Of a DNA stretch of 64,000 bases, positions 20,765-28,960 are shown in pieces. Source of the stretch: Candidatus Nomurabacteria bacterium (GTDB taxonomy: Bacteria; Patescibacteriota; Minisyncoccia; Phycocordibacterales; SBAW01). The stretch lies in assembly GCA_943349945.1 (NCBI GenBank), contig CALQZS010000002.1:51278-115277 (forward strand), read 5' to 3'. A program made the position numbers and the translations under genes. Each line of letters starts with the position of its first letter. Position 1 is the first letter of the stretch. A model generated the notes under the pieces. That model did not search any database and had not been told where the DNA came from. It worked only from the letters and a program-made list of their open reading frames with translations.

Positions 20765-20768
20765 TCAA

Positions 20769-20805
20769 AAAAACAAGCCCTTATGCGGGGCTTGTTTTTT
20801 TATAA
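20769..20805 (+). terminator. strong rho-independent terminator ending the ribosomal operon
   Basis: aaaaacaagccc / gggcttgttttt stem followed by TTTTTTT. Confidence 0.85.
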
Positions 20806-20849
20806 CAACCGCCGTACTCTACCACCACGCACCATACAAGGAGGGCGCA

Positions 20850-21401
20850 ATGTTCACTATCGCACAAGAAAAGCTGCCTACCGCCCAGTACTTAAAAACC
20901 GAGTTCTTCTTTATTATGAGTAACTACGGTTACTCGTCCCCAACCGCCAAAACCTCCGGCTTGATCGTGGAAGATCCACTTATTCAAGACGGAAAGATTA
21001 TGAAACACCACAAACGGTTCGGGGACTTCCTTCTGGTATTTACTGACCGCTGGTGGAACGGTGGCGGCCAAAGCACATTCCATCTCCAAAACATTGTTGG
21101 ACAACAGATCCTGCTATGGAGTATGACTTACTCAGGCAGCTACAACAAAATCGCCATCCCCACACTAATGGGCGCGTTGCGCACCACATACAATGCGAGA
21201 GAGTTTTGTGGTGGCAGGGGACCAAATATGTACCCATCTGACGACAAAACAATGACCTACTTCAACACCTACGATGGAGATTTCTCGCACTTTTCAGCGA
21301 ACGAGAAAATATTGGGCAAGGTGGGTGAAGAACAACGCTTACTTGGTGGACACTATTGTTGGGGAGGCCTCCATACGCTGACAGTATCACAAAAATATTG
21401 A
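20850..21401 (+). CDS. orphan hypothetical protein in its own transcription unit
   Basis: A 183-aa ORF (alternative start at MSNYGY, 20916) bounded by terminators on both sides. No recognisable family. W/G/Y-rich. Confidence 0.5.
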   Translation: MFTIAQEKLPTAQYLKTEFFFIMSNYGYSSPTAKTSGLIVEDPLIQDGKIMKHHKRFGDFLLVFTDRWWNGGGQSTFHLQNIVGQQILLWSMTYSGSYNKIAIPTLMGALRTTYNAREFCGGRGPNMYPSDDKTMTYFNTYDGDFSHFSANEKILGKVGEEQRLLGGHYCWGGLHTLTVSQKY

Positions 21402-21422
21402 TACACAAATACTGCTCATTCA

Positions 21423-21456
21423 AGCGCCCTGTCATTTGACGAGGCGCTATTTTTTA
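21423..21456 (+). terminator. rho-independent terminator after the orphan gene
   Basis: agcgccctgtca ttt gacgaggcgct hairpin followed by ATTTTTTAT. Confidence 0.7.
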
Positions 21457-21489
21457 TCTATACAGCAATGAAATGAGTCTTATTCATGC

Positions 21490-21507
21490 GGTTTGATATA
21501 TCAAACC
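21490..21507. promoter_or_regulatory. 18-bp perfect palindrome GGTTTGATATATCAAACC (operator-like, copy 1)
   Basis: A perfect inverted repeat whose core is identical to the 28-bp palindrome at 22021-22048. It lies just downstream of the TrpR-like regulator gene. Confidence 0.6.
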
Positions 21508-21582
21508 ATTCCATAGACTGAATAGAAAAATAAAGAGTAATGCAGCAGGAATTACACTGACAACAAGGGCGGCCTTGGTGGT

Positions 21583-22005
21583 TTATTTTTTCTTATTGCG
21601 GGGGAGGGGAAAGAGGAGGAAGTGGGCGGGATATTTTTGTTTAAGTCGAAAGAGGGCAGAGGTGGCGTACTGTTTTTTAAACTCGCGTTTGTCTAGCTCT
21701 TTTTCGAGCTCTGCAACAGCGCTCTCAAACCCAGGGAACTGGTCACATAACCATATCTGAACCCTGCATATCGTATCTCGCCCAACACGCAACTCTTCTT
21801 CTATAGCACGGTACGTGTGGCCTTGGATAAGCATGCGGGCAATAATAATGCGCCGCCCAAGCATCACGCGTTCGCTTTCTGTGAGCAAGTCCCGCAGAAA
21901 CAGCTTCATGGCGTCGCGTCCACGCACAGCACCCGCCGCGGTGTAGAGCATGTCCAACACTTCTATACGCTGTTTGTCGGTGAGGGCTCGCAAACGGACT
22001 TTCAT
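21583..22005 (-). CDS. TrpR/YerC/YecD-like helix-turn-helix regulator
   Basis: Its length (140 aa) and motif (TESERVMLGRRIIIARMLIQGHTYRAIEEELRVGRDTICRV) match the Trp-repressor-like YerC/YecD family. Confidence 0.7.
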   Translation of the reverse strand: MKVRLRALTDKQRIEVLDMLYTAAGAVRGRDAMKLFLRDLLTESERVMLGRRIIIARMLIQGHTYRAIEEELRVGRDTICRVQIWLCDQFPGFESAVAELEKELDKREFKKQYATSALFRLKQKYPAHFLLFPLPRNKKK

Positions 22006-22020
22006 ACCCTCTAGTGTGCC

Positions 22021-22048
22021 ATAGTGGTTTGATATATCAAACCACTAT
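22021..22048. promoter_or_regulatory. 28-bp perfect palindrome ATAGTGGTTTGATATATCAAACCACTAT (operator-like, copy 2) between the regulator gene and grpE
   Basis: A perfect inverted repeat lying 3 bp upstream of a TTGACA (22051-56)-N16-TATACT (22073-78) promoter that faces grpE-dnaK. Confidence 0.65.
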
Positions 22049-22050
22049 TG

Positions 22051-22078
22051 TTGACAGCAACAAAAAATTGTCTATACT
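22051..22078 (+). promoter_or_regulatory. sigma-70-like promoter for grpE-dnaK (TTGACA-N16-TATACT)
   Basis: Consensus -35 and near-consensus -10 elements. The -10 lies 9 nt before the grpE ATG, so the leader is very short or absent. Confidence 0.55.
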
Positions 22079-22087
22079 GTGGTACAT

Positions 22088-22603
22088 ATGGATGGTGCAG
22101 AAGAAGAGGAATTTGTGCCAGAAGACGAAGCAGAAGAGGGTCCAGGGCTTATTAAAAAACTTCGCGAAAAATTAAAGAAGGCCGTCGAAGAAAAGCAGGA
22201 GTACCTGGAAGGATGGCAGCGCTCTCGGGCAGACTTTGCCAACTACAAACGAGAAGAAGTGGGGCTCTACGCCGACCGCGAAGCGCGCATCAAAGCAGAC
22301 TTTGTAGAAGCGCTGTTACCAACACTTGATTCGTTTGAGATGGCTCTACGGCACGCTCCGGACAATGCTGAGTTGGCACTGGTACACAAACAACTTGCCC
22401 AATCTCTGCAGCAAATAGGCGTAACGCAGTTTGGACGCTCAGGAGAACCCTTTAACCCGCACCTCCACGAAGCCCTACAGGAAATACCCATAGGCGATAG
22501 CGCGCAAGACCACACCATTGAAAGCGTACATCGAGCAGGGTACAGTATTGGCGACAAAATTATCCGCCCCGCACAAGTCGCCGTATACACACTTACAAAG
22601 TAA
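22088..22603 (+). CDS. grpE: nucleotide exchange factor GrpE
   Basis: GrpE signature (RSRADFANYKREE...) and a coiled-coil N-terminus. Confidence 0.9.
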   Translation: MDGAEEEEFVPEDEAEEGPGLIKKLREKLKKAVEEKQEYLEGWQRSRADFANYKREEVGLYADREARIKADFVEALLPTLDSFEMALRHAPDNAELALVHKQLAQSLQQIGVTQFGRSGEPFNPHLHEALQEIPIGDSAQDHTIESVHRAGYSIGDKIIRPAQVAVYTLTK

Positions 22604-22626
22604 TTAGCTACTAATAAAAAAATACT

Positions 22627-24528
22627 ATGGGAAAAATTTTAGGCATTGACCTTGGTACTACAAACTCTGCAGTCGCAGTTATGCGCGGCGGCGAGGCACA
22701 GATAATCGAAAACGCAGAAGGTGCACGCACCACACCGTCGATTGTTGCAACCTCCAAAACAGGGGAGCGCTTGGCCGGGCTTATTGCACGCCGCCAAGCC
22801 GTCACTAACCCAAAAAATACCGTATACCAAATCAAGCGTTTTATCGGCCACAACTTTGACGAACCTGCAGTACAAAAAGATAAAGCCGTGCTGCCTTACG
22901 AGATGCGCAAATCAGCAAACGGCGGCATCGAGGTGCAGATGGGGGAGCAGTGGTACCGCCCCGAGGAAATCTCGGCAATGATCTTGCAAAAACTAAAGAC
23001 CGACGCAGAAAAACGCTTGGGAGAGCCTATTACCGAAGCGGTAATAACCGTGCCTGCATACTTTAACGACGCGCAACGCGCGGCTACTCGCGACGCGGGT
23101 AAAATTGCAGGACTCGACGTAAAGCGCATCATCAACGAGCCAACCGCAGCAGCACTTGCCTACGGCTTTAACAAAAAGAAAGACGAAAAGGTAGTGGTCT
23201 TTGACTTCGGCGGCGGCACCTTCGACATCTCCGTACTTGAGGTAACCATGGGCACCGAGGGCGAGGGCTCTATTGAAGTGCGCTCCACAGACGGCGACGC
23301 ACACCTGGGTGGCAAAGACCTCGACCAAAAAATTATCGACTTTTTGGCAACCGAATTTCAAAAAGAAAGCGGTATAGACGTGCGCAACGACCCTCTGGCA
23401 CGTCAGCGTTTGGACGAAGCAGCAGAGAAAGCAAAAATCGAACTCTCGACAGCCGTCGACACCGAGGTAAATATCCCGTTCATCACCTCGGACGCATCAG
23501 GCCCGCGCCACTTGCTTATTAAACTGAGCCGCGCAAAGCTCGAAGAGCTTTCGGCCGAATTTATCCAGCGCGCACTCGACATAACAAAACGTGCCATGGA
23601 AGCGTCGCCCTTTAAAGTAGGGGATATCCACGAAGTCATTTTGGTGGGCGGCCAAACCCGCATGCCCGCAATGCAGGCTGCGGTAGAAAAATACTTTGGC
23701 AAAAAGCCAAACATGTCGGTTAACCCAGACGAAGTAGTGGCCATTGGTGCAGCCATCCAAGGTGGAATCCTCGGCGGCGACGTCAAAGACGTATTGTTGC
23801 TCGACGTTATCCCGCTATCCCTCGGTATCGAGACTATGGGCGGCGTTGCAACCAAACTTATCGAGCGCAACACCACCATCCCCACAAGCCGCTCGCAAGT
23901 ATTCTCCACGGCGGCAGACAATCAAACATCTGTAGAAATTCACATCACCCAAGGCGAGCGCGCCATGGCAGGAGACAACAAGTCGCTGGGCCGCTTTGTA
24001 CTCGACGGCATCCCACCCGCACCACGCGGACTGCCACAAGTAGAGGTAACCTTTGACGTAGACGCGAACGGCATACTCGCGGTGAAAGCAAAAGACAAAG
24101 CAACCAACAAAGAGCAGTCTATACGTATCGAAGCGTCGTCTGGACTCTCGGACGCGGACATTGAAAAGATGCGCAAAGACGCAGAGGCAAACGCCGACAG
24201 CGACAAAGCCAAGGTAGAGCTTGCAAGCGCGCGCAACGAAGCCGAGCAGACTGTGTACGCAGCGCGCAAAGCACTCGCAGACAACAAAGACAAAGTGCCT
24301 GCCGAACTTGAGACTACGATTAACGAAAAAATTGCAGCGGTAGAATCTAAAAAGACTTCCGAGGATGCTGCAGAGATAAAAACCGCGCTGACAGAACTCT
24401 CGAGCGAACTATCTAAGGTGTACGAAGCGGTACAGAAAGCAGGGGGCGAACAAAAAGAGGCCCCGCAGCAAGATACTACGGGGACCAACGAGACCGGTAC
24501 AGAGACTCCACCCGAGGAGCAGAAGTAG
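22627..24528 (+). CDS. dnaK: chaperone DnaK (Hsp70)
   Basis: [12 protein letters not shown] and full-length Hsp70 similarity. Confidence 0.97.
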
Positions 24529-24536
24529 GAGCGAAC

Positions 24537-24656
24537 CTATATCTGATCTTCTTGCATCGTTTCGTCTGAGGCGACGAAGAAAAACCAAACCAGGACTCCC
24601 GCTGGGACTCCGACCAATCCTACAATTGCGAGGGCAACTTGCATGTTCATCTCCAT
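24537..24656 (-). CDS. possible small hydrophobic peptide (35-39 aa)
   Basis: Translates to MEMNMQVALAIVGLVGVPAGVLVWFFFVASDETMQEDQI. A GGAG lies 7 nt before the third ATG. It is not in the ORF track because it is under 60 aa. Confidence 0.3.
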   Translation of the reverse strand: MEMNMQVALAIVGLVGVPAGVLVWFFFVASDETMQEDQI

Positions 24657-24725
24657 TCGATTGACCGCACTGTGCGATTCTGGCAACACAATACCACAAA
24701 ATCATGCGTGATATAGTTACACCTT

Positions 24726-26501
24726 ATGAATAAAACATTTGGCATATGGGTGGTGCTTAAAACCTATTGGCACTACCTTAAACGCTACCCATGGCTTTTG
24801 ACCATCATTTTGGGGAGCAGCTTATTGTTGCAAGTCACCAATCTTGTCGCGCCGCTCTACATGCGCGACCTCTTTAACCTGCTTGCCTCGGGAGACCCGC
24901 ACACCGTCGCCATGGGCACACTGCTGTCTCTGTTGGGCGTACTCTCGACCATATGGATGCTCGACTGGGTCGCAACGCGCGGACAAGGCTTCACCACAGC
25001 ACACATGGAAGCCAAAATAATGACCGAGCTTCAGACAGATGCCTTTCGCTATCTTCTTGGCCACTCGTACAATTTCTTTACTTCCAATTTTGCCGGGTCG
25101 CTTACACACAAAGTAAAGCAATATGCACGGGCGTTCGAAGTGCTGTTTGACGGCATTACCTTTCAATTTTTACCGACACTTTTGTTTGTGGTGGGTGCGG
25201 TAACTATTTTGTTTTTGCGGCACCCAGTACTTGGAGTACTCCTTGGCGTATGGTCGGTGGCATTTATTGCCTTCCAGATATGGATAGCGAAAACGCGACA
25301 ACCTATACGCGTTGAGCGCGCCGAGATGGACACCAAGGTAACGGGTTCACTTGCAGACGCTATTTCCAACCAATCGGCTATTGCGCTATTTGCAGGAAGC
25401 AAGCACGAACTTGGCCTCTTTGGCGAGACTATTGGCCTTTGGCAGCGTGCCACGTCGCGACTATGGAAGATGGAAGACTGGACATGGGCGGGTATTGGAC
25501 TTTTTATGATTATCATACAGGCGGCCTTGTTGTACGCAGCGATGGTGTTTTGGAAGGCAGGGATGCTCACAGTCGGGGACTTTATCCTGATACAAGCGTA
25601 CCTTCTGACAACCTTTAACCGACTCATCGGCGTCAACCGCGACTTGCGTGGATTCTACGGAGCAATAGCCGACGCGAGCGAGACTATCGAGATATTGCGC
25701 ACCCCGCACGAGATTACAGACAAACCAAAAGCAAAAAAACTCGCCGTCACCGTGGGAGAAGTGGCATTTAAAGACGTATCATTTCTCTTCCTCAATAAGC
25801 AGATTTTTAAAGATCTGTCTTTCACTATCTTGGGCGGACAAAAAGTCGCACTGGTGGGGCCGTCGGGCGCAGGCAAGTCCACCATCACTAAACTCCTGCT
25901 GCGCTTGTTTGACGTAAAGAGTGGCACTGTAGAAATTGATGGACAAAACATTGCCAAAGTAACACAAGACAGTTTGCGCGAATCTATTGCGTTTGTGCCG
26001 CAAGAGCCGGTGCTCTTTCATCGCAGCCTGATGGACAACATCCGCTACGGGCGGCGTGACGCCACAGATGAAGAGGTTATTGCGGCGGCTAAAAAAGCAC
26101 ACTGCCACGAATTTATCCAAGGCCTAAGCGAAGGCTACAACACCTTTGTGGGCGAGCGCGGTATCAAACTCTCCGGCGGCGAAAGGCAGCGTGTGGCAAT
26201 TGCCCGCGCCATACTCAAAAACTCACCCATATTGGTGCTCGACGAAGCAACCTCGAGCCTCGACTCGGAGTCTGAGTCGCTTATTCAAGACGCGCTCGAG
26301 ACGCTGATGCAGGGCAAAACCGTTATCGTCATAGCGCACCGCCTCTCGACCATTATGAAGATGGATAGAATTGTGGTGCTCGAAGACGGCAAAATAGTCG
26401 CCGACGGTACACATGACGAATTGCTTAAAGAAGAAGGCTTGTATCACAAACTATGGAGCATCCAAGCAGGCGGTTTCATCATAGACGATGAAAAAGAGTA
26501 G
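24726..26501 (+). CDS. ABC exporter, fused permease/ATPase (MsbA/multidrug-type)
   Basis: A six-TM N-terminal domain, Walker A (GPSGAGKST), ABC signature (LSGGERQRVAIARA) and Walker B (ILVLDEATS). Confidence 0.9.
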   Translation: MNKTFGIWVVLKTYWHYLKRYPWLLTIILGSSLLLQVTNLVAPLYMRDLFNLLASGDPHTVAMGTLLSLLGVLSTIWMLDWVATRGQGFTTAHMEAKIMTELQTDAFRYLLGHSYNFFTSNFAGSLTHKVKQYARAFEVLFDGITFQFLPTLLFVVGAVTILFLRHPVLGVLLGVWSVAFIAFQIWIAKTRQPIRVERAEMDTKVTGSLADAISNQSAIALFAGSKHELGLFGETIGLWQRATSRLWKMEDWTWAGIGLFMIIIQAALLYAAMVFWKAGMLTVGDFILIQAYLLTTFNRLIGVNRDLRGFYGAIADASETIEILRTPHEITDKPKAKKLAVTVGEVAFKDVSFLFLNKQIFKDLSFTILGGQKVALVGPSGAGKSTITKLLLRLFDVKSGTVEIDGQNIAKVTQDSLRESIAFVPQEPVLFHRSLMDNIRYGRRDATDEEVIAAAKKAHCHEFIQGLSEGYNTFVGERGIKLSGGERQRVAIARAILKNSPILVLDEATSSLDSESESLIQDALETLMQGKTVIVIAHRLSTIMKMDRIVVLEDGKIVADGTHDELLKEEGLYHKLWSIQAGGFIIDDEKE

Positions 26502-26541
26502 GTTGCATTAGCGAGTTTTTTTAGTAGAATATGTACATATT

Positions 26542-27612
26542 ATGTCTACTAAACGCGATTACTATGAAGTATTGGGGATACAAAAAAGCGCCTCGAAAGA
26601 GGAGGTAAAGAAAGCGTTCCATAAATTGGCGCACAAATTCCACCCAGACAAAAGCACTGGCGACGCCGACAAATTTAAAGAAGTAAGCGAGGCATATAGC
26701 GTACTGTCCGACGATAAAAAGCGCGCCGAGTACGACTCGTACGGCCGTGTGTTTAGCGACGGAGCGGGTCCAGGAGCAGGCGGCTTTAATGGGGGAGGTT
26801 TTGACTTCTCGCAGTTTCAAGATGCGTTCCAAGGATTTGGATTTGATTTTGGCGACTTCTTTGGCGGCCAAGGCGGAAGCCGAGGTGGACGACGCGGCCG
26901 CGATGTATCTATTGACTTGGAGATCAACTTTAAAGAATCGATATTTGGTACCAAGCGCACCGTGCTGTTGGCAAAAATAGCACAGTGCGAAACATGCCAC
27001 GGCTCGGGCGGCGAGCCCGGGACAGAGATAGAGACCTGTAAACACTGCAACGGCTCGGGTAAAGTGCACGAGACCAGCAACTCGTTTTTTGGCCAAATCA
27101 CCATGCAGAGCCCTTGCCGCCATTGCCACGCTACAGGTAAAGTACCAAAAGAAAAGTGCCACACCTGCCGTGGCGAAGGCGTATACCGCAAACAAGAAGA
27201 AATCGAAATTATCGTACCCGCAGGTATTGAAGGGGGCGAGATGATCCGCCTTACAGGTGCAGGCGAAGCAGTCGCAGGCGGCAGTTCGGGCGACTTGTAC
27301 GTCAAAGTACACGTGCAGCCTGATGCGCGCTTTAAAAAAGACGGTGTCAATTTGGTCACCGACCTTTCGGTCAAACTCTCGGATGCACTCCTCGGCGCAC
27401 CATACCAAGTTACGACACTAGACGGCGAGCAGTCGCTCGACATCCCCATGGGGGTAACCCACGGCGAGATGATCCGCATCCCGGGCAAGGGCGTGCCAAC
27501 CCCGCGCGGCAAACGCGGCGACCTTTTTGTGCGCGTCAAAATAAACCTGCCACAAAAACTCTCGCGTGAGGCGAAGAAGCTTATAGAGAAACTTAAAGAA
27601 GAGGGGATATAA
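26542..27612 (+). CDS. dnaJ: chaperone DnaJ
   Basis: A J-domain with HPD, a G/F-rich region and four CxxCxGxG zinc-finger repeats. Confidence 0.95.
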
Positions 27613-28006: not shown

Positions 28007-28960
28007 ATGGCAGAGGCACAAAAACGTATTTTTACAGGGCTCCAACCCAGCGGGCAGATGCACCTGGGCAACTACTTTGGCGCTATTAAGCCAAACGTAG
28101 ATTTGTTTGCCGAAAGCAAAGGCCTTTTTATGGTAGCCGACTATCACGCACTCACCAGCCTTAAAGACCCTGCAGCCATCCGCACAAACATTATTGAAAA
28201 TGTTAAGGACTACATGGCAGCAGGGCTCAACACCGACAACGCGATACTCTTTAAACAATCTGACGTATCCGAGCATACCGAGCTGGCGTGGATATTTGAC
28301 TGCCTCGTAACCGTGCCGTTTTTGATGCAGGGCCATGCCTACAAAGACAAAGTGGCCAAAGGACTCGAACCAAACGCCGGACTCTTTACCTACCCGATGC
28401 TTATGGCGGCAGACATTTTGCTGTACGACACCGACATAGTGCCCGTGGGCGAAGACCAGCGCCAGCATGTGGAATATGCACGCGAAGCAGCGGCCAAATT
28501 TAACACAGCCTTTGGCCAGACGTTTAAAGAGCCTACAGAGGTCATTAGCAAAGCGGTGGGCGTGGTGCCTGGCACTGACGGCAAGAAGATGAGCAAGAGC
28601 TACGGCAACACCATCCCACTCTTTGGCAGCAAAGACGAAATTACAAAAGCAGTGATGAGCATTGTTACAGACTCCAGCGGCGAGCGGCCAGAAAATGTGT
28701 ACGCAATACACAAACTATTGCTCGACCAAAGCGGATTGGACAAGGTATATAGCAACCCTGCAATTAAAGGTAAGTACAAACTTATTAAAGAAGCTTTGAT
28801 AGAAGACTTGGAGGCGTTTATTGCCCCAATGCGCGACAGACGCGCAAACATTAGCGACGATGATGTTAAAAAGGTTTTGAAAGACGGGGGAGAAAAAGCA
28901 AAAGAAATAGCAGCAGCAAAGATGGCAGAGGTACGACAGAAAGTAGGAGTAACACTATAA
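28007..28960 (+). CDS. trpS: tryptophanyl-tRNA synthetase
   Basis: Class I HIGH-like region (GLQPSGQMHLGNY) and KMSKS. Confidence 0.92.
   Translation: MAEAQKRIFTGLQPSGQMHLGNYFGAIKPNVDLFAESKGLFMVADYHALTSLKDPAAIRTNIIENVKDYMAAGLNTDNAILFKQSDVSEHTELAWIFDCLVTVPFLMQGHAYKDKVAKGLEPNAGLFTYPMLMAADILLYDTDIVPVGEDQRQHVEYAREAAAKFNTAFGQTFKEPTEVISKAVGVVPGTDGKKMSKSYGNTIPLFGSKDEITKAVMSIVTDSSGERPENVYAIHKLLLDQSGLDKVYSNPAIKGKYKLIKEALIEDLEAFIAPMRDRRANISDDDVKKVLKDGGEKAKEIAAAKMAEVRQKVGVTL

What the first reader, a model, noticed from the sequence alone, without database searches (positions are those of the whole stretch)
21490..22090. TrpR/YerC-like regulator bracketed by twin GGTTTGATATATCAAACC palindromes, the larger abutting the grpE-dnaK-dnaJ promoter: candidate novel heat-shock control circuit
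A 140-aa Trp-repressor-like (YerC/YecD family) gene (21583-22005, minus strand) is transcribed divergently from grpE-dnaK-ABC-dnaJ. The 45-bp gap before the TTGACA-N16-TATACT promoter of grpE contains a perfect 28-bp palindrome (22021-22048). A perfect 18-bp copy of the same core (21490-21507) lies just beyond the 3' end of the regulator gene. Perfect palindromes of this length are classic dimeric HTH operators. No CIRCE element (TTAGCACTC-N9-GAGTGCTAA) was found anywhere in the window, so the hsp70 operon may be controlled by this regulator rather than HrcA. The downstream copy sits between the regulator and an orphan, independently terminated gene (20850-21401), which would form a small regulon.
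Basis: partly seen in the sequence, partly recalled or inferred. Interest (0 to 1): 0.8.

Follow-up and report, generated by a model that had tools for sequence, protein, structure and literature searches.

The report
Self-bracketed TrpR-like repressor beside grpE
A small Trp-repressor-like DNA-binding protein of an ultra-small (CPR/Paceibacterota) bacterium sits between two copies of its own palindromic binding site, a layout conserved in most of its relatives; its position next to the heat-shock genes grpE-dnaK is confined to one sub-lineage and is probably not a general heat-shock switch.

Summary
A perfect 28-bp palindrome (22021-22048) and a perfect 18-bp copy of its core (21490-21507) bracket a 140-aa Pfam Trp_repressor gene. 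These are the only two matches in 64 kb, against 0 expected. No CIRCE element is present.

The palindromes belong to the regulator, not to grpE. In 66 of 78 homologous Paceibacterota loci the gene is flanked by a matching pair of near-perfect palindromes with an ATATAT centre. The arms differ between genomes and paralogs. They covary with the residues equivalent to the DNA-contact positions of E. coli TrpR; for example, D77 pairs with G at operator position -4 in 37 of 37 loci.

The upstream site overlaps the regulator's own predicted leaderless promoter, so autorepression is the best reading. The downstream site is most likely an auxiliary operator acting by looping or as a roadblock.

Most homologs lie beside unrelated housekeeping genes. 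The rpsI|grpE slot holds variable cargo. One genome encodes the regulator elsewhere, and its grpE promoter has no operator. Where the regulator does sit beside grpE (9 genome contexts), the operator centre lies 16-17 bp upstream of the grpE -35. Local co-regulation therefore remains possible.

Verdict: a new variant of a TrpR/HisR-type autoregulated repressor. The heat-shock circuit is unproven.

The parts
22021..22048 (.). Upstream operator O1: a perfect 28-bp palindrome with its 18-bp core at 22026-22043 and an ATATAT centre. It overlaps the inferred -35 and spacer of the regulator's own promoter. Its centre lies 16 bp upstream of the grpE -35.
   Evidence: conserved position in homologs; covariation with HTH residues
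21490..21507 (.). Downstream operator O2: a perfect 18-bp copy of the O1 core. Its centre lies about 85 bp past the regulator's stop codon, in the spacer between two convergent genes, 536 bp centre-to-centre from O1.
   Evidence: a downstream cognate copy is present in 59 of 81 loci and as a matched pair in 66 of 78
21583..22005 (-). The regulator gene: 140 aa, TrpR-superfamily HTH protein with a CPR-specific helical C-terminal extension of about 45 aa (residues ~93-131, ending in a conserved hydrophobic and basic tail, YPxHFLLFPxPK).
22013..22040 (-). Inferred promoter of the regulator: -35 TTGATA (22040-22035, inside O1), 16-nt spacer, weak -10 CACACT (22018-22013), then 7 nt to the ATG at 22005. 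The mRNA would be leaderless.
   Evidence: read; by analogy with L001 (TTGATA-N16-TATGCT-N7-ATG) and the family-wide peak of -10-like hexamers ending 6-8 nt before the ATG. Inferred, not shown.
22051..22078 (+). grpE promoter TTGACA-N16-TATACT. The predicted transcription start is near 22085, 2-3 nt before the ATG at 22088.
   Evidence: 11/12 match; the same strong promoter occurs in relatives with and without the operator
22088..27612 (+). The grpE-dnaK-ABC exporter-dnaJ gene row. It is the neighbour of the unit. Control by the regulator is possible in this sub-lineage but not established.
21564..21590 (+). Plus-strand terminator-like hairpin and T-run overlapping the regulator's stop codon. 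It would stop antisense read-through into the regulator gene.
20850..21401 (+). Orphan gene with a weak DUF5680 match, convergent with the regulator. It is probably variable cargo of the rpsI|grpE slot and not a target of O2.
   Evidence: geometry

Best explanation
The 140-aa protein is a dimeric repressor of the TrpR/HisR superfamily that reads the two palindromes flanking its own gene.

O1 covers the -35 and spacer of the regulator's own leaderless promoter, so the protein shuts off its own synthesis. This is negative autoregulation, as in TrpR and HisR.

O2, the identical core beyond the 3' end, is an auxiliary operator. Most likely it cooperates with O1 through a DNA loop of about 0.5 kb, possibly held by the family-specific C-terminal helices. 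Alternatively, or in addition, it acts as a bound-protein roadblock that insulates this lone, oppositely oriented gene from read-through by its neighbours.

The 'operator-gene-operator' unit is the conserved feature of a Paceibacterota-wide family. Each ortholog and paralog has its own arm sequence, matched to its recognition-helix residues. In the window's sub-lineage the unit sits in the variable slot between rpsI and grpE. There O1 also lies at about -51 of the strong grpE promoter and may modulate it.

Shown here: the elements, their conservation, the covariation and the promoter geometry. Inferred: binding, the sign of regulation, looping, and any effect on grpE.
For: 1. The bracket is conserved. 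Perfect palindromes with an ATATAT centre and arms of 7 bp or more occur upstream in 58 of 81 loci and downstream in 59 of 81. Only 10 occur elsewhere in 496 kb of flanking DNA, and several of those bracket a second paralog. Matched near-perfect pairs occur in 66 of 78 loci.

2. The two copies in one locus agree over 6.9 of 9 variable positions. Copies from different loci agree over 1.4.

3. There is a recognition code. D77 pairs with G at position -4 in 37 of 37 loci, and non-D with C in 31 of 32. R76 pairs with G at -8 in 17 of 17. R66 pairs with G at -9 in 21 of 21. W/G80 goes with T at -6 and E/R/H/Q80 with A. Of 89 variable columns, those ranked 1, 2, 3, 5 and 6 for mutual information with the operator are residues 80, 76, 69, 66 and 77. 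These align with TrpR T83, I79, K72, R69 and A80. An NJ tree built without the HTH suggests about 6 independent co-transitions at D77/-4.

4. Paralogs within one genome carry different cognate pairs. A distant Trp_repressor paralog (L064 2430-2846) has its own bracket.

5. -10-like hexamers end 6-8 nt before the ATG, and the operator centre lies 17.5 or about 30 bp before the ATG. The operator therefore overlaps the -10 or the -35.

6. Both fold and sequence are TrpR-like. HisR and TrpR use 20-bp palindromes and are commonly autoregulated (PMC9413887).

7. There is no RNA signature. G:T and A:C first mismatches are equally frequent, and Rfam finds no family.
Against: No binding or expression data exist. 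The window's own -10 (CACACT) is weak. The closest relative, L001, lacks the downstream copy, so O2 is not indispensable. Helical phasing of the O1-O2 distance is only marginal (p about 0.02-0.05, untreated for multiple tests). No tetramer could be modelled. Some downstream copies are embedded in perfect palindromes of 40-62 bp flanked by A and T tracts, which look like bidirectional terminators. In one relative the exact 18-mer occurs on at least 9 further contigs, so the protein is not purely a self-regulator. Part of the covariation could reflect shared ancestry.
Confidence: 0.72

Rival explanations
1. One reading: the regulator is the heat-shock repressor of grpE-dnaK-dnaJ, replacing HrcA/CIRCE, and the palindromes define a small stress regulon.
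For: CIRCE is absent from the window and from every related grpE locus. No HrcA family appears among the called neighbours of grpE in 10 look-ups. In 9 genome contexts the operator centre lies 16-17 bp upstream of the grpE TTGACA, even though the spacer sequences have diverged and GrpE identity is only 57-91%. These are the window, L001, L002, L006, L047, L005/L140, L142 and L144. In L005/L140 the regulator is co-directional with grpE and it is the downstream copy that abuts the promoter. The family's invariant C-terminal tail (KYPxHFLLFPxPK) has a hydrophobic core flanked by basic residues. From memory, this resembles a DnaK-binding motif.
Against: Only about 6 of 81 homologous loci are near grpE. 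0 of 6 sampled grpE loci with readable upstream sequence carry the regulator or any AT-centred palindrome. MAG JACOWS has the regulator on one contig (L003), and its grpE promoter (L137) has no operator within 5 mismatches. The rpsI|grpE slot carries unrelated cargo in relatives. The additional sites seen in another organism flank tgt, ybeY/ftsA, trpS and a redoxin gene, not chaperone genes. A site at -51 does not overlap the core promoter. The orphan gene lies upstream of O2, not downstream of it.
Confidence: 0.13
2. The palindromes are RNA or DNA hairpins, such as terminators or mRNA-end stabilisers, with no link to the protein. The protein regulates something else.
For: Many downstream copies lie directly after stop codons. 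Some are extended into long perfect hairpins flanked by A and T tracts. In the multi-site organism several copies lie 1-2 nt after a stop codon.
Against: The arms covary with DNA-contact residues of the encoded protein. The upstream copy sits in the promoter, upstream of the predicted leaderless start. The window copies have no following T-run, and separate canonical terminators exist. There is no G:U bias and no Rfam match.
Confidence: 0.05
3. The palindrome-gene-palindrome unit is a small mobile or invertible cassette. The palindromes would be recombination sites, for example Xer-like 11-6-11 sites or REP-like ends.
For: The genomic contexts vary, and the unit sits in a hypervariable slot that holds HicAB in relatives. 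The window's O1 can be read as 11-6-11. The regulator has opposite orientations relative to grpE in L140 versus the window. Identical palindromes are at once direct and inverted repeats.
Against: Arm length ranges from 7 to 31 bp, and arm sequence tracks the cargo protein's HTH residues, not a recombinase. Synteny is stable within sub-families: gatB-obg|reg|secA in 11-13 genomes, always in the same orientation. No identical multi-copy cassettes were seen. The family has no relatives in 2.9 million viral contigs. No transposase or recombinase is adjacent.
Confidence: 0.06

Closest known systems
HisR (B. subtilis YerC), the histidine repressor of the TrpR family (PMC9413887)
   Same: It has the same Pfam family and fold. 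The best solved relatives, 3frw, 3kor and 3g1c, are of this type. The operator is a palindrome of about 20 bp with a 7-6-7 layout. Some lineages here read CACTTTC-ATATAT-GAAAGTG, against the HisR consensus cacTTTA-N6-TAAAgtg. HisR is frequently autoregulated.
   Different: The protein scores below the NCBIfam YerC/YecD cut-off, 34.8 against 42.2 bits. It has an extra conserved C-terminal region of about 45 aa. No his genes were seen among the neighbours. The operator centre is invariant ATATAT. A second cognate operator lies beyond the 3' end of the gene. Several paralogs with distinct specificities can occur in one genome.
E. coli TrpR and its trp operator
   Same: It is a dimeric HTH repressor. 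The residues that covary with the operator align with TrpR R69, K72, I79, A80 and T83. T44, R54 and R84, which from memory line the ligand pocket, align with conserved T42, R52 and R81. TrpR is autoregulated through an operator overlapping its own promoter.
   Different: The protein scores 30.4 bits against a TrpR equivalog cut-off of 67.25. The operator sequence differs. No trp genes are involved, although trpS lies 0.4 kb after dnaJ. The protein carries a C-terminal extension, and its operators bracket the gene.
Auxiliary-operator looping systems (lac O1-O2 at 401 bp, gal OE-OI, deo)
   Same: Two identical or similar operators a few hundred bp apart, one at the promoter and one downstream. 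Here the spacing is 420-586 bp with a median of 478.
   Different: Here the loop would enclose the repressor's own entire gene. Tetramerisation is untested and phasing evidence is marginal.
HrcA-CIRCE and HspR-HAIR heat-shock repressors
   Same: A perfect inverted repeat lies next to a grpE-dnaK-dnaJ promoter, with a regulator gene immediately upstream of grpE.
   Different: The protein family is unrelated and there is no CIRCE. The site lies at about -51 and does not overlap the core promoter. The association holds only in one sub-lineage.
RAYT genes flanked by their cognate REP palindromes
   Same: A single small gene is bracketed by palindromes specific to that gene's paralog. Extra copies are dispersed in at least one genome.
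   Different: The protein is an HTH repressor, not an HUH transposase. The window has only 2 copies in 64 kb.

Membership tests
TrpR superfamily (Pfam PF01371) | Sequence match above the Pfam gathering score | tested here: met
   50.6 bits against a cut-off of 27, E = 2.1e-13. All 120 listed homologs carry PF01371.
TrpR superfamily (Pfam PF01371) | All-helical TrpR fold with the HTH formed by helices D and E | tested here: met
   The AF2 model has pLDDT 82.6 with helices at 10-26, 30-39, 43-60, 65-72 and 76-87. The top 30 Foldseek PDB hits are all TrpR or TrpR-like, with probability up to 0.99 but E only about 0.1; the rmsd is high because the monomer is modelled outside the intertwined dimer.
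TrpR superfamily (Pfam PF01371) | Palindromic operator of about 18-20 bp read by the recognition helix | tested here: met
   Shown by covariation only: with alignment to TrpR contact residues. Physical binding was not tested.
TrpR equivalog (NCBIfam TIGR01321) | Score above the curated cut-off | tested here: not met
   30.4 bits against 67.25.
YerC/YecD = HisR (NCBIfam TIGR02531) | Score above the curated cut-off | tested here: not met
   34.8 bits against 42.2.
YerC/YecD = HisR | Operators upstream of histidine biosynthesis or transport genes | tested here: not met
   Neighbour clusters of the 80 loci are obg, gatB, secA, murA, grpE/dnaK and others. No his genes were recognised. Whole genomes could not be scanned.
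HrcA-CIRCE heat-shock control | A CIRCE inverted repeat (TTAGCACTC-N9-GAGTGCTAA) at the chaperone promoter | tested here: not met
   0 matches with up to 3 mismatches in the window. None near any grpE with up to 4 mismatches in 956 kb.
HrcA-CIRCE heat-shock control | An hrcA gene in the genome | not testable with these tools
   Only 64 kb of the genome is available. No HrcA Pfam family appears among the called neighbours of grpE in the 10 look-ups.
Intrinsic (rho-independent) terminator | A G+C-rich hairpin followed by a T-run | tested here: not met
   Neither window palindrome was called and neither has a T-run. Some homologous downstream copies do carry A/T-tract flanks.
Xer/dif-type recombination site | Fixed 11-6-11 architecture conserved with the recombinase | tested here: not met
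   Arm length ranges from 7 to 31 bp, and arms covary with the adjacent HTH protein.
REP/RAYT system | An HUH tyrosine transposase gene flanked by highly repeated REP elements | tested here: not met
   The protein is a Trp_repressor HTH. The window holds 2 copies in 64 kb.
Looping repressor with an auxiliary operator | Tetramer (dimer of dimers) bridging two operators, with helical phasing | tested here: inconclusive
   Rayleigh test p about 0.05 at a 10.5-bp period and 0.016 at 11 bp, n = 48. The oligomeric state cannot be tested here.

The most novel reading that the evidence does not exclude
The family is a previously unrecognised class of stress or proteostasis regulator in CPR bacteria. 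It would be a TrpR-fold repressor whose invariant hydrophobic and basic C-terminal tail is titrated by DnaK, by analogy with HspR or sigma-32. In lineages such as this window's it would control the CIRCE-less grpE-dnaK-dnaJ promoter from a fixed position at about -51, while looping around its own gene. A milder version also remains open: the bracketing operators form a self-enclosing repression loop or insulator, an architecture not described for any TrpR-family protein.
Probability: 0.12. Interest if true: 0.85.

Novelty: new variant of a known kind. Interest (0 to 1): 0.58.

Why it matters
Transcriptional regulation in CPR/Patescibacteria is almost unexplored. Four literature searches found nothing on this family.

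This work defines a widespread Paceibacterota family of TrpR-like regulators, with at least 731 homologs. It gives the family's operator, a readable residue-to-base recognition code, and an unusual conserved layout in which the repressor's gene lies between two copies of its own operator. The result is directly testable predictions, such as specificity swaps at D77/-4, R76/-8 and R66/-9, and a natural set of orthogonal repressor-operator pairs.

It also corrects an attractive but over-reaching inference. Adjacency to grpE-dnaK reflects a variable insertion slot in one sub-lineage. The question of how CIRCE-less CPR bacteria control their chaperones therefore stays open.

Tried and rejected
- **Terminator role:** rejected for the window copies. 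They have no T-run, and separate terminators flank O2.
- **RNA structure:** no Rfam family matches and there is no G:U bias.
- **Phage or mobile origin:** no relatives in viral contigs, no adjacent recombinase, and stable synteny within sub-families.
- **Simple inversion between the two palindromes** as the origin of the co-directional L005/L140 arrangement: does not fit. The centre-to-ATG distance is 67 bp, not 30, and the ORF runs into the operator.
- **A -35 element (TTGATA) inside the operator as a general rule:** fits the window and L001 but not L103, where the spacer would be 19 nt. Only 'the operator overlaps the -35 or -10 region' is claimed.
- **Orphan gene 20850-21401 as a regulon member:** rejected on geometry, because O2 lies beyond its 3' end.
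- **Helical phasing of O1-O2:** marginal and left inconclusive.
- **hrcA in the window:** none of the 300-370-aa ORFs looked like HrcA by their N-termini. This was not formally scanned, so no claim is made.
- **A plus-strand promoter-like TTGACG-N17-TATACA at 21436-21464, reading towards O2:** not called by the scan because it lacks the final T. Not pursued.
Full report
**1.

The plus strand reads ATAGTGGTTTGATATATCAAACCACTAT at 22021-22048, a perfect 28-bp palindrome, and GGTTTGATATATCAAACC at 21490-21507, a perfect 18-bp palindrome. Allowing 3 mismatches, these are the only two matches in 64 kb. None of 100 dinucleotide-preserving shuffles produced any match.

Between them lies the ORF 21583-22005 on the minus strand. 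It encodes 140 aa and matches Pfam Trp_repressor at E = 2.1e-13, 50.6 bits against a cut-off of 27. To its right sits a promoter, TTGACA-N16-TATACT, at 22051-22078, scoring 11 of 12. This is followed by grpE (ATG at 22088), dnaK, an ABC exporter and dnaJ. No CIRCE element is present with up to 3 mismatches.

**2. The palindromes belong to the regulator gene, not to grpE**

The protein has 731 homologs in the searched collection. The named ones come from Paceibacterota/Parcubacteria-type CPR bacteria, and the top 120 are 60-99% identical. A scan of one genome per species returned 80 loci.

In those loci plus the window, perfect palindromes with an ATATAT centre and arms of at least 7 bp occur within 250 bp upstream of the gene in 58 of 81 cases and downstream in 59 of 81. 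Only 10 occur in the remaining 496 kb of flanks. Several of those 10 bracket a second paralog. Examples are L026 at 464 and 994, and L064 at 2411 and 2888. The L064 pair flanks a distant ORF matching Pfam Trp_repressor at 8e-9.

Allowing one unpaired position, 66 of 78 loci carry a matching pair, one copy on each side. 44 of those pairs are identical. Within a locus the two copies agree over 6.9 of the 9 variable half-site positions. Copies from different loci agree over 1.4.

The arms differ between genomes and between paralogs of one genome, but they always stay self-complementary.

**3. The encoded protein reads these sites**

Across 69 loci, operator position -4 is G whenever residue 77 is Asp (37 of 37). 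It is C when residue 77 is anything else (31 of 32). Arg76 goes with G at -8 (17 of 17) and Arg66 with G at -9 (21 of 21). Trp or Gly at residue 80 goes with T at -6, and Glu, Arg, His or Gln with A.

Of 89 variable alignment columns, those with the highest summed mutual information with the operator are residues 80, 76 and 69 at ranks 1-3, and residues 66 and 77 at ranks 5 and 6. A profile alignment to E. coli TrpR equates these with T83, I79, K72, R69 and A80. From my recollection of the TrpR-operator structure, these are the helix-turn-helix positions that face the DNA.

A neighbour-joining tree built without the HTH columns needs about 6-7 changes of each character at D77/-4, and the association holds in 68 of 69 cases. 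The signal is therefore not a single clade split. The tree is crude, however, and shared ancestry contributes to the signal.

G:T and A:C first mismatches at the arm ends are equally frequent, and Rfam finds nothing. This argues for selection on duplex DNA, not on an RNA hairpin.

**4. The geometry points to autorepression**

In 80 loci, -10-like hexamers (A at position 2, T at position 6, at least 4 of 6 matches) pile up ending 6-8 nt before the ATG. The counts there are 23, 15 and 16 against a background of about 5. This indicates leaderless mRNAs.

The operator centre lies either about 17.5 or about 30 bp before the ATG. The 18-bp core therefore covers the -10 or the -35 and spacer.

In the window the likely promoter is TTGATA (22040-22035, inside O1), 16 nt, CACACT, 7 nt, ATG. 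In the closest relative, L001, it is TTGATA-N16-TATGCT-N7-ATG. Operators overlapping the regulator's own promoter are the norm for TrpR and common for HisR (PMC9413887).

**5. The role of the downstream copy is inferred**

The downstream copy is present whatever the orientation of the next gene. The centre-to-centre distance is 420-586 bp with a median of 478, and phasing is only marginal (p about 0.02-0.05).

In the window O2 lies about 85 bp past the stop codon. It sits between what look by eye like the terminators of the two convergent genes, and a plus-strand terminator-like hairpin overlaps the regulator's stop codon. O2 is therefore probably not transcribed.

The family has a confidently predicted C-terminal extension, with helices at 93-115, 117-124 and 126-131 (pLDDT 76-92 in the 10-residue blocks spanning 91-130). 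TrpR and HisR lack it.

I favour an auxiliary operator that loops to O1, with the extension as a candidate bridging domain. A roadblock or insulator role is the main alternative. It is supported by copies placed 1-2 nt after stop codons and by downstream copies extended into perfect palindromes of 40-62 bp with A/T tracts. The closest relative, L001, lacks O2, so O2 is dispensable.

**6. The protein is not only a self-regulator everywhere**

An exact-match scan of metagenomes for the 18-mer gave 53 loci. One organism of about 60% G+C, from samples Ga0233425 and Ga0233424, stands out. It has a 65%-identical regulator (R76, D77, W80) with two upstream sites and one downstream site. It also carries the exact 18-mer on at least 9 other contigs, 6 of them at intergenic positions. 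The positions are after a large secreted protein and before tgt, after ybeY and before ftsA, after trpS, after a redoxin gene, and after a HAD phosphatase gene. No chaperone gene was found near these sites.

**7. The grpE link**

Seen from the regulator side, only about 6 of 81 loci have grpE within 4 kb. Other sub-families sit in gatB-obg|reg|secA (11-13 loci), next to murA, or elsewhere.

The window is syntenic with L133 on both sides, with the ribosomal protein genes up to rpsI on one side and grpE-dnaK-ABC-dnaJ-trpS on the other. In L133, however, the slot between rpsI and grpE holds a HicA/HicB-like pair and a 221-aa gene. Its grpE promoter, TTGATT-N16-TATAAT-N7-ATG, has no palindrome.

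Of seven GrpE homologs chosen without regard to the regulator, six had readable upstream sequence. All six show the same conserved rpsI...grpE synteny with different cargo: none, HicA, unknown genes, or a caspase-like peptidase. None has a TrpR-like gene, HrcA, or an AT-centred palindrome. The seventh, L147, has only 259 bp upstream of grpE; that stretch also holds no palindrome.

MAG JACOWS is the sharpest test. Its regulator is 76% identical, lies on contig 3 (L003) and has the operator GTGACTTGATATATCAAGTCAC. Its grpE promoter on contig 2 (L137) has no match within 5 mismatches. grpE is therefore not a conserved target.

On the other hand, wherever the regulator does occupy the slot, the operator centre lies 16 or 17 bp upstream of the grpE TTGACA. 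The cases are the window, L001, L002, L006, L047, L005/L140, L142/L143 and L144. This holds although the intervening bases differ and GrpE identity falls to 57%. It also holds in L005/L140, where the regulator is co-directional with grpE and its downstream copy abuts the promoter. In the obg-linked sub-family the corresponding distance varies from 38 to more than 90 bp.

This spacing is the one real argument for a local effect on the grpE promoter, from a centre at about -51. The sign of any effect is unknown. I put the chance of some effect at about 40%, and of a genuine heat-shock sensor at about 10-15%.

**8. Comparison with known families**

The protein belongs to the TrpR superfamily (Pfam, fold). 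It fails the curated cut-offs of both named families: YerC/YecD = HisR at 34.8 against 42.2 bits, and TrpR at 30.4 against 67.25 bits.

Its operator shares the 7-6-7 layout of HisR sites. Some lineages read CACTTTC-ATATAT-GAAAGTG, against the HisR consensus cacTTTA-N6-TAAAgtg. The equivalents of TrpR T44, R54 and R84 are conserved. From memory these line the ligand pocket, which hints at a small-molecule co-repressor, not a thermosensor.

The following features set this family apart from the two named families and were not found in the literature searched:
- the C-terminal extension;
- the invariant ATATAT centre;
- the operator pair bracketing the gene;
- paralog-specific recognition codes.

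**9. Verdict**

It is a conserved, self-bracketed, autoregulated TrpR-like repressor family of Paceibacterota.

The proposed heat-shock circuit is at best a lineage-specific add-on and remains untested. The proposed regulon including the orphan gene is not supported.

Noticed in passing
window 20765-22087; L133 9738-11143; L137 1064-2384; L148 400-1929: The gap between rpsI and grpE is a hypervariable slot in otherwise conserved synteny. It holds a DUF5680-like orphan plus the regulator in the window, a HicA/HicB-like pair in L133 and L137, a caspase-like peptidase in L148, unknown small genes in L145 and L149, and nothing in L134-136.
   Followed up: partly
window 24726-26501; also L001, L002, L047, L133, L134, L140, L148: An MsbA-like ABC exporter gene sits between dnaK and dnaJ in many relatives. 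Others (L137, L139, L144, L149) have dnaK followed directly by dnaJ. Its function in the chaperone operon is unexplained.
   Followed up: no
L064 2411-2915: A distant 138-aa Trp_repressor paralog (Pfam 8e-9) is bracketed by its own cognate palindromes, ...ACTATACGATATATCGTATAGT..., 477 bp apart. It lies 1.1 kb from the family member that brought in the locus, whose palindrome has a TTATAA centre. The bracket architecture therefore extends beyond the family studied.
   Followed up: partly
L081, L083, L085, L095, L103, L116, L118, L120, L128 (sample Ga0233425) and L131 (Ga0233424): One Paceibacterota-like organism of about 60% G+C carries the exact 18-mer GGTTTGATATATCAAACC on at least 10 contigs. 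Three copies lie inside genes (pheT, rsmI, a SpoU-type methyltransferase). Several lie 1 nt after a stop codon.
   Followed up: partly
window 22073-22090 and 22005-22018; grpE and obg promoters in L025-L077 and L133-L149: The regulator, grpE and obg all appear to be expressed from leaderless or near-leaderless mRNAs, with the -10 hexamer 6-10 nt before the ATG and no Shine-Dalgarno sequence. The obg promoters use an extended -10, TG(g/a)TAGGGT.
   Followed up: partly
window 21564-21590 (+): A plus-strand terminator-like hairpin, CAAGGGCGGCCTTG plus a T-run, overlaps the stop codon of the minus-strand regulator gene. It would block antisense transcription entering the gene from the convergent side.
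   Followed up: no
regulator residues 120-140 (window 21583-21645): The C-terminal tail RLKxKYPxHFLLFPxPK is nearly invariant across the family: a hydrophobic core flanked by basic residues. From memory it resembles a DnaK-binding motif. No test was possible.
   Followed up: no
window 28007-28960; L116 2852-3857: trpS lies 0.4 kb downstream of dnaJ in the window, on the same strand as the grpE row. In the multi-site organism a copy of the operator lies 31 bp after trpS. A link between a Trp-repressor-like protein and trpS may be coincidence.
   Followed up: no
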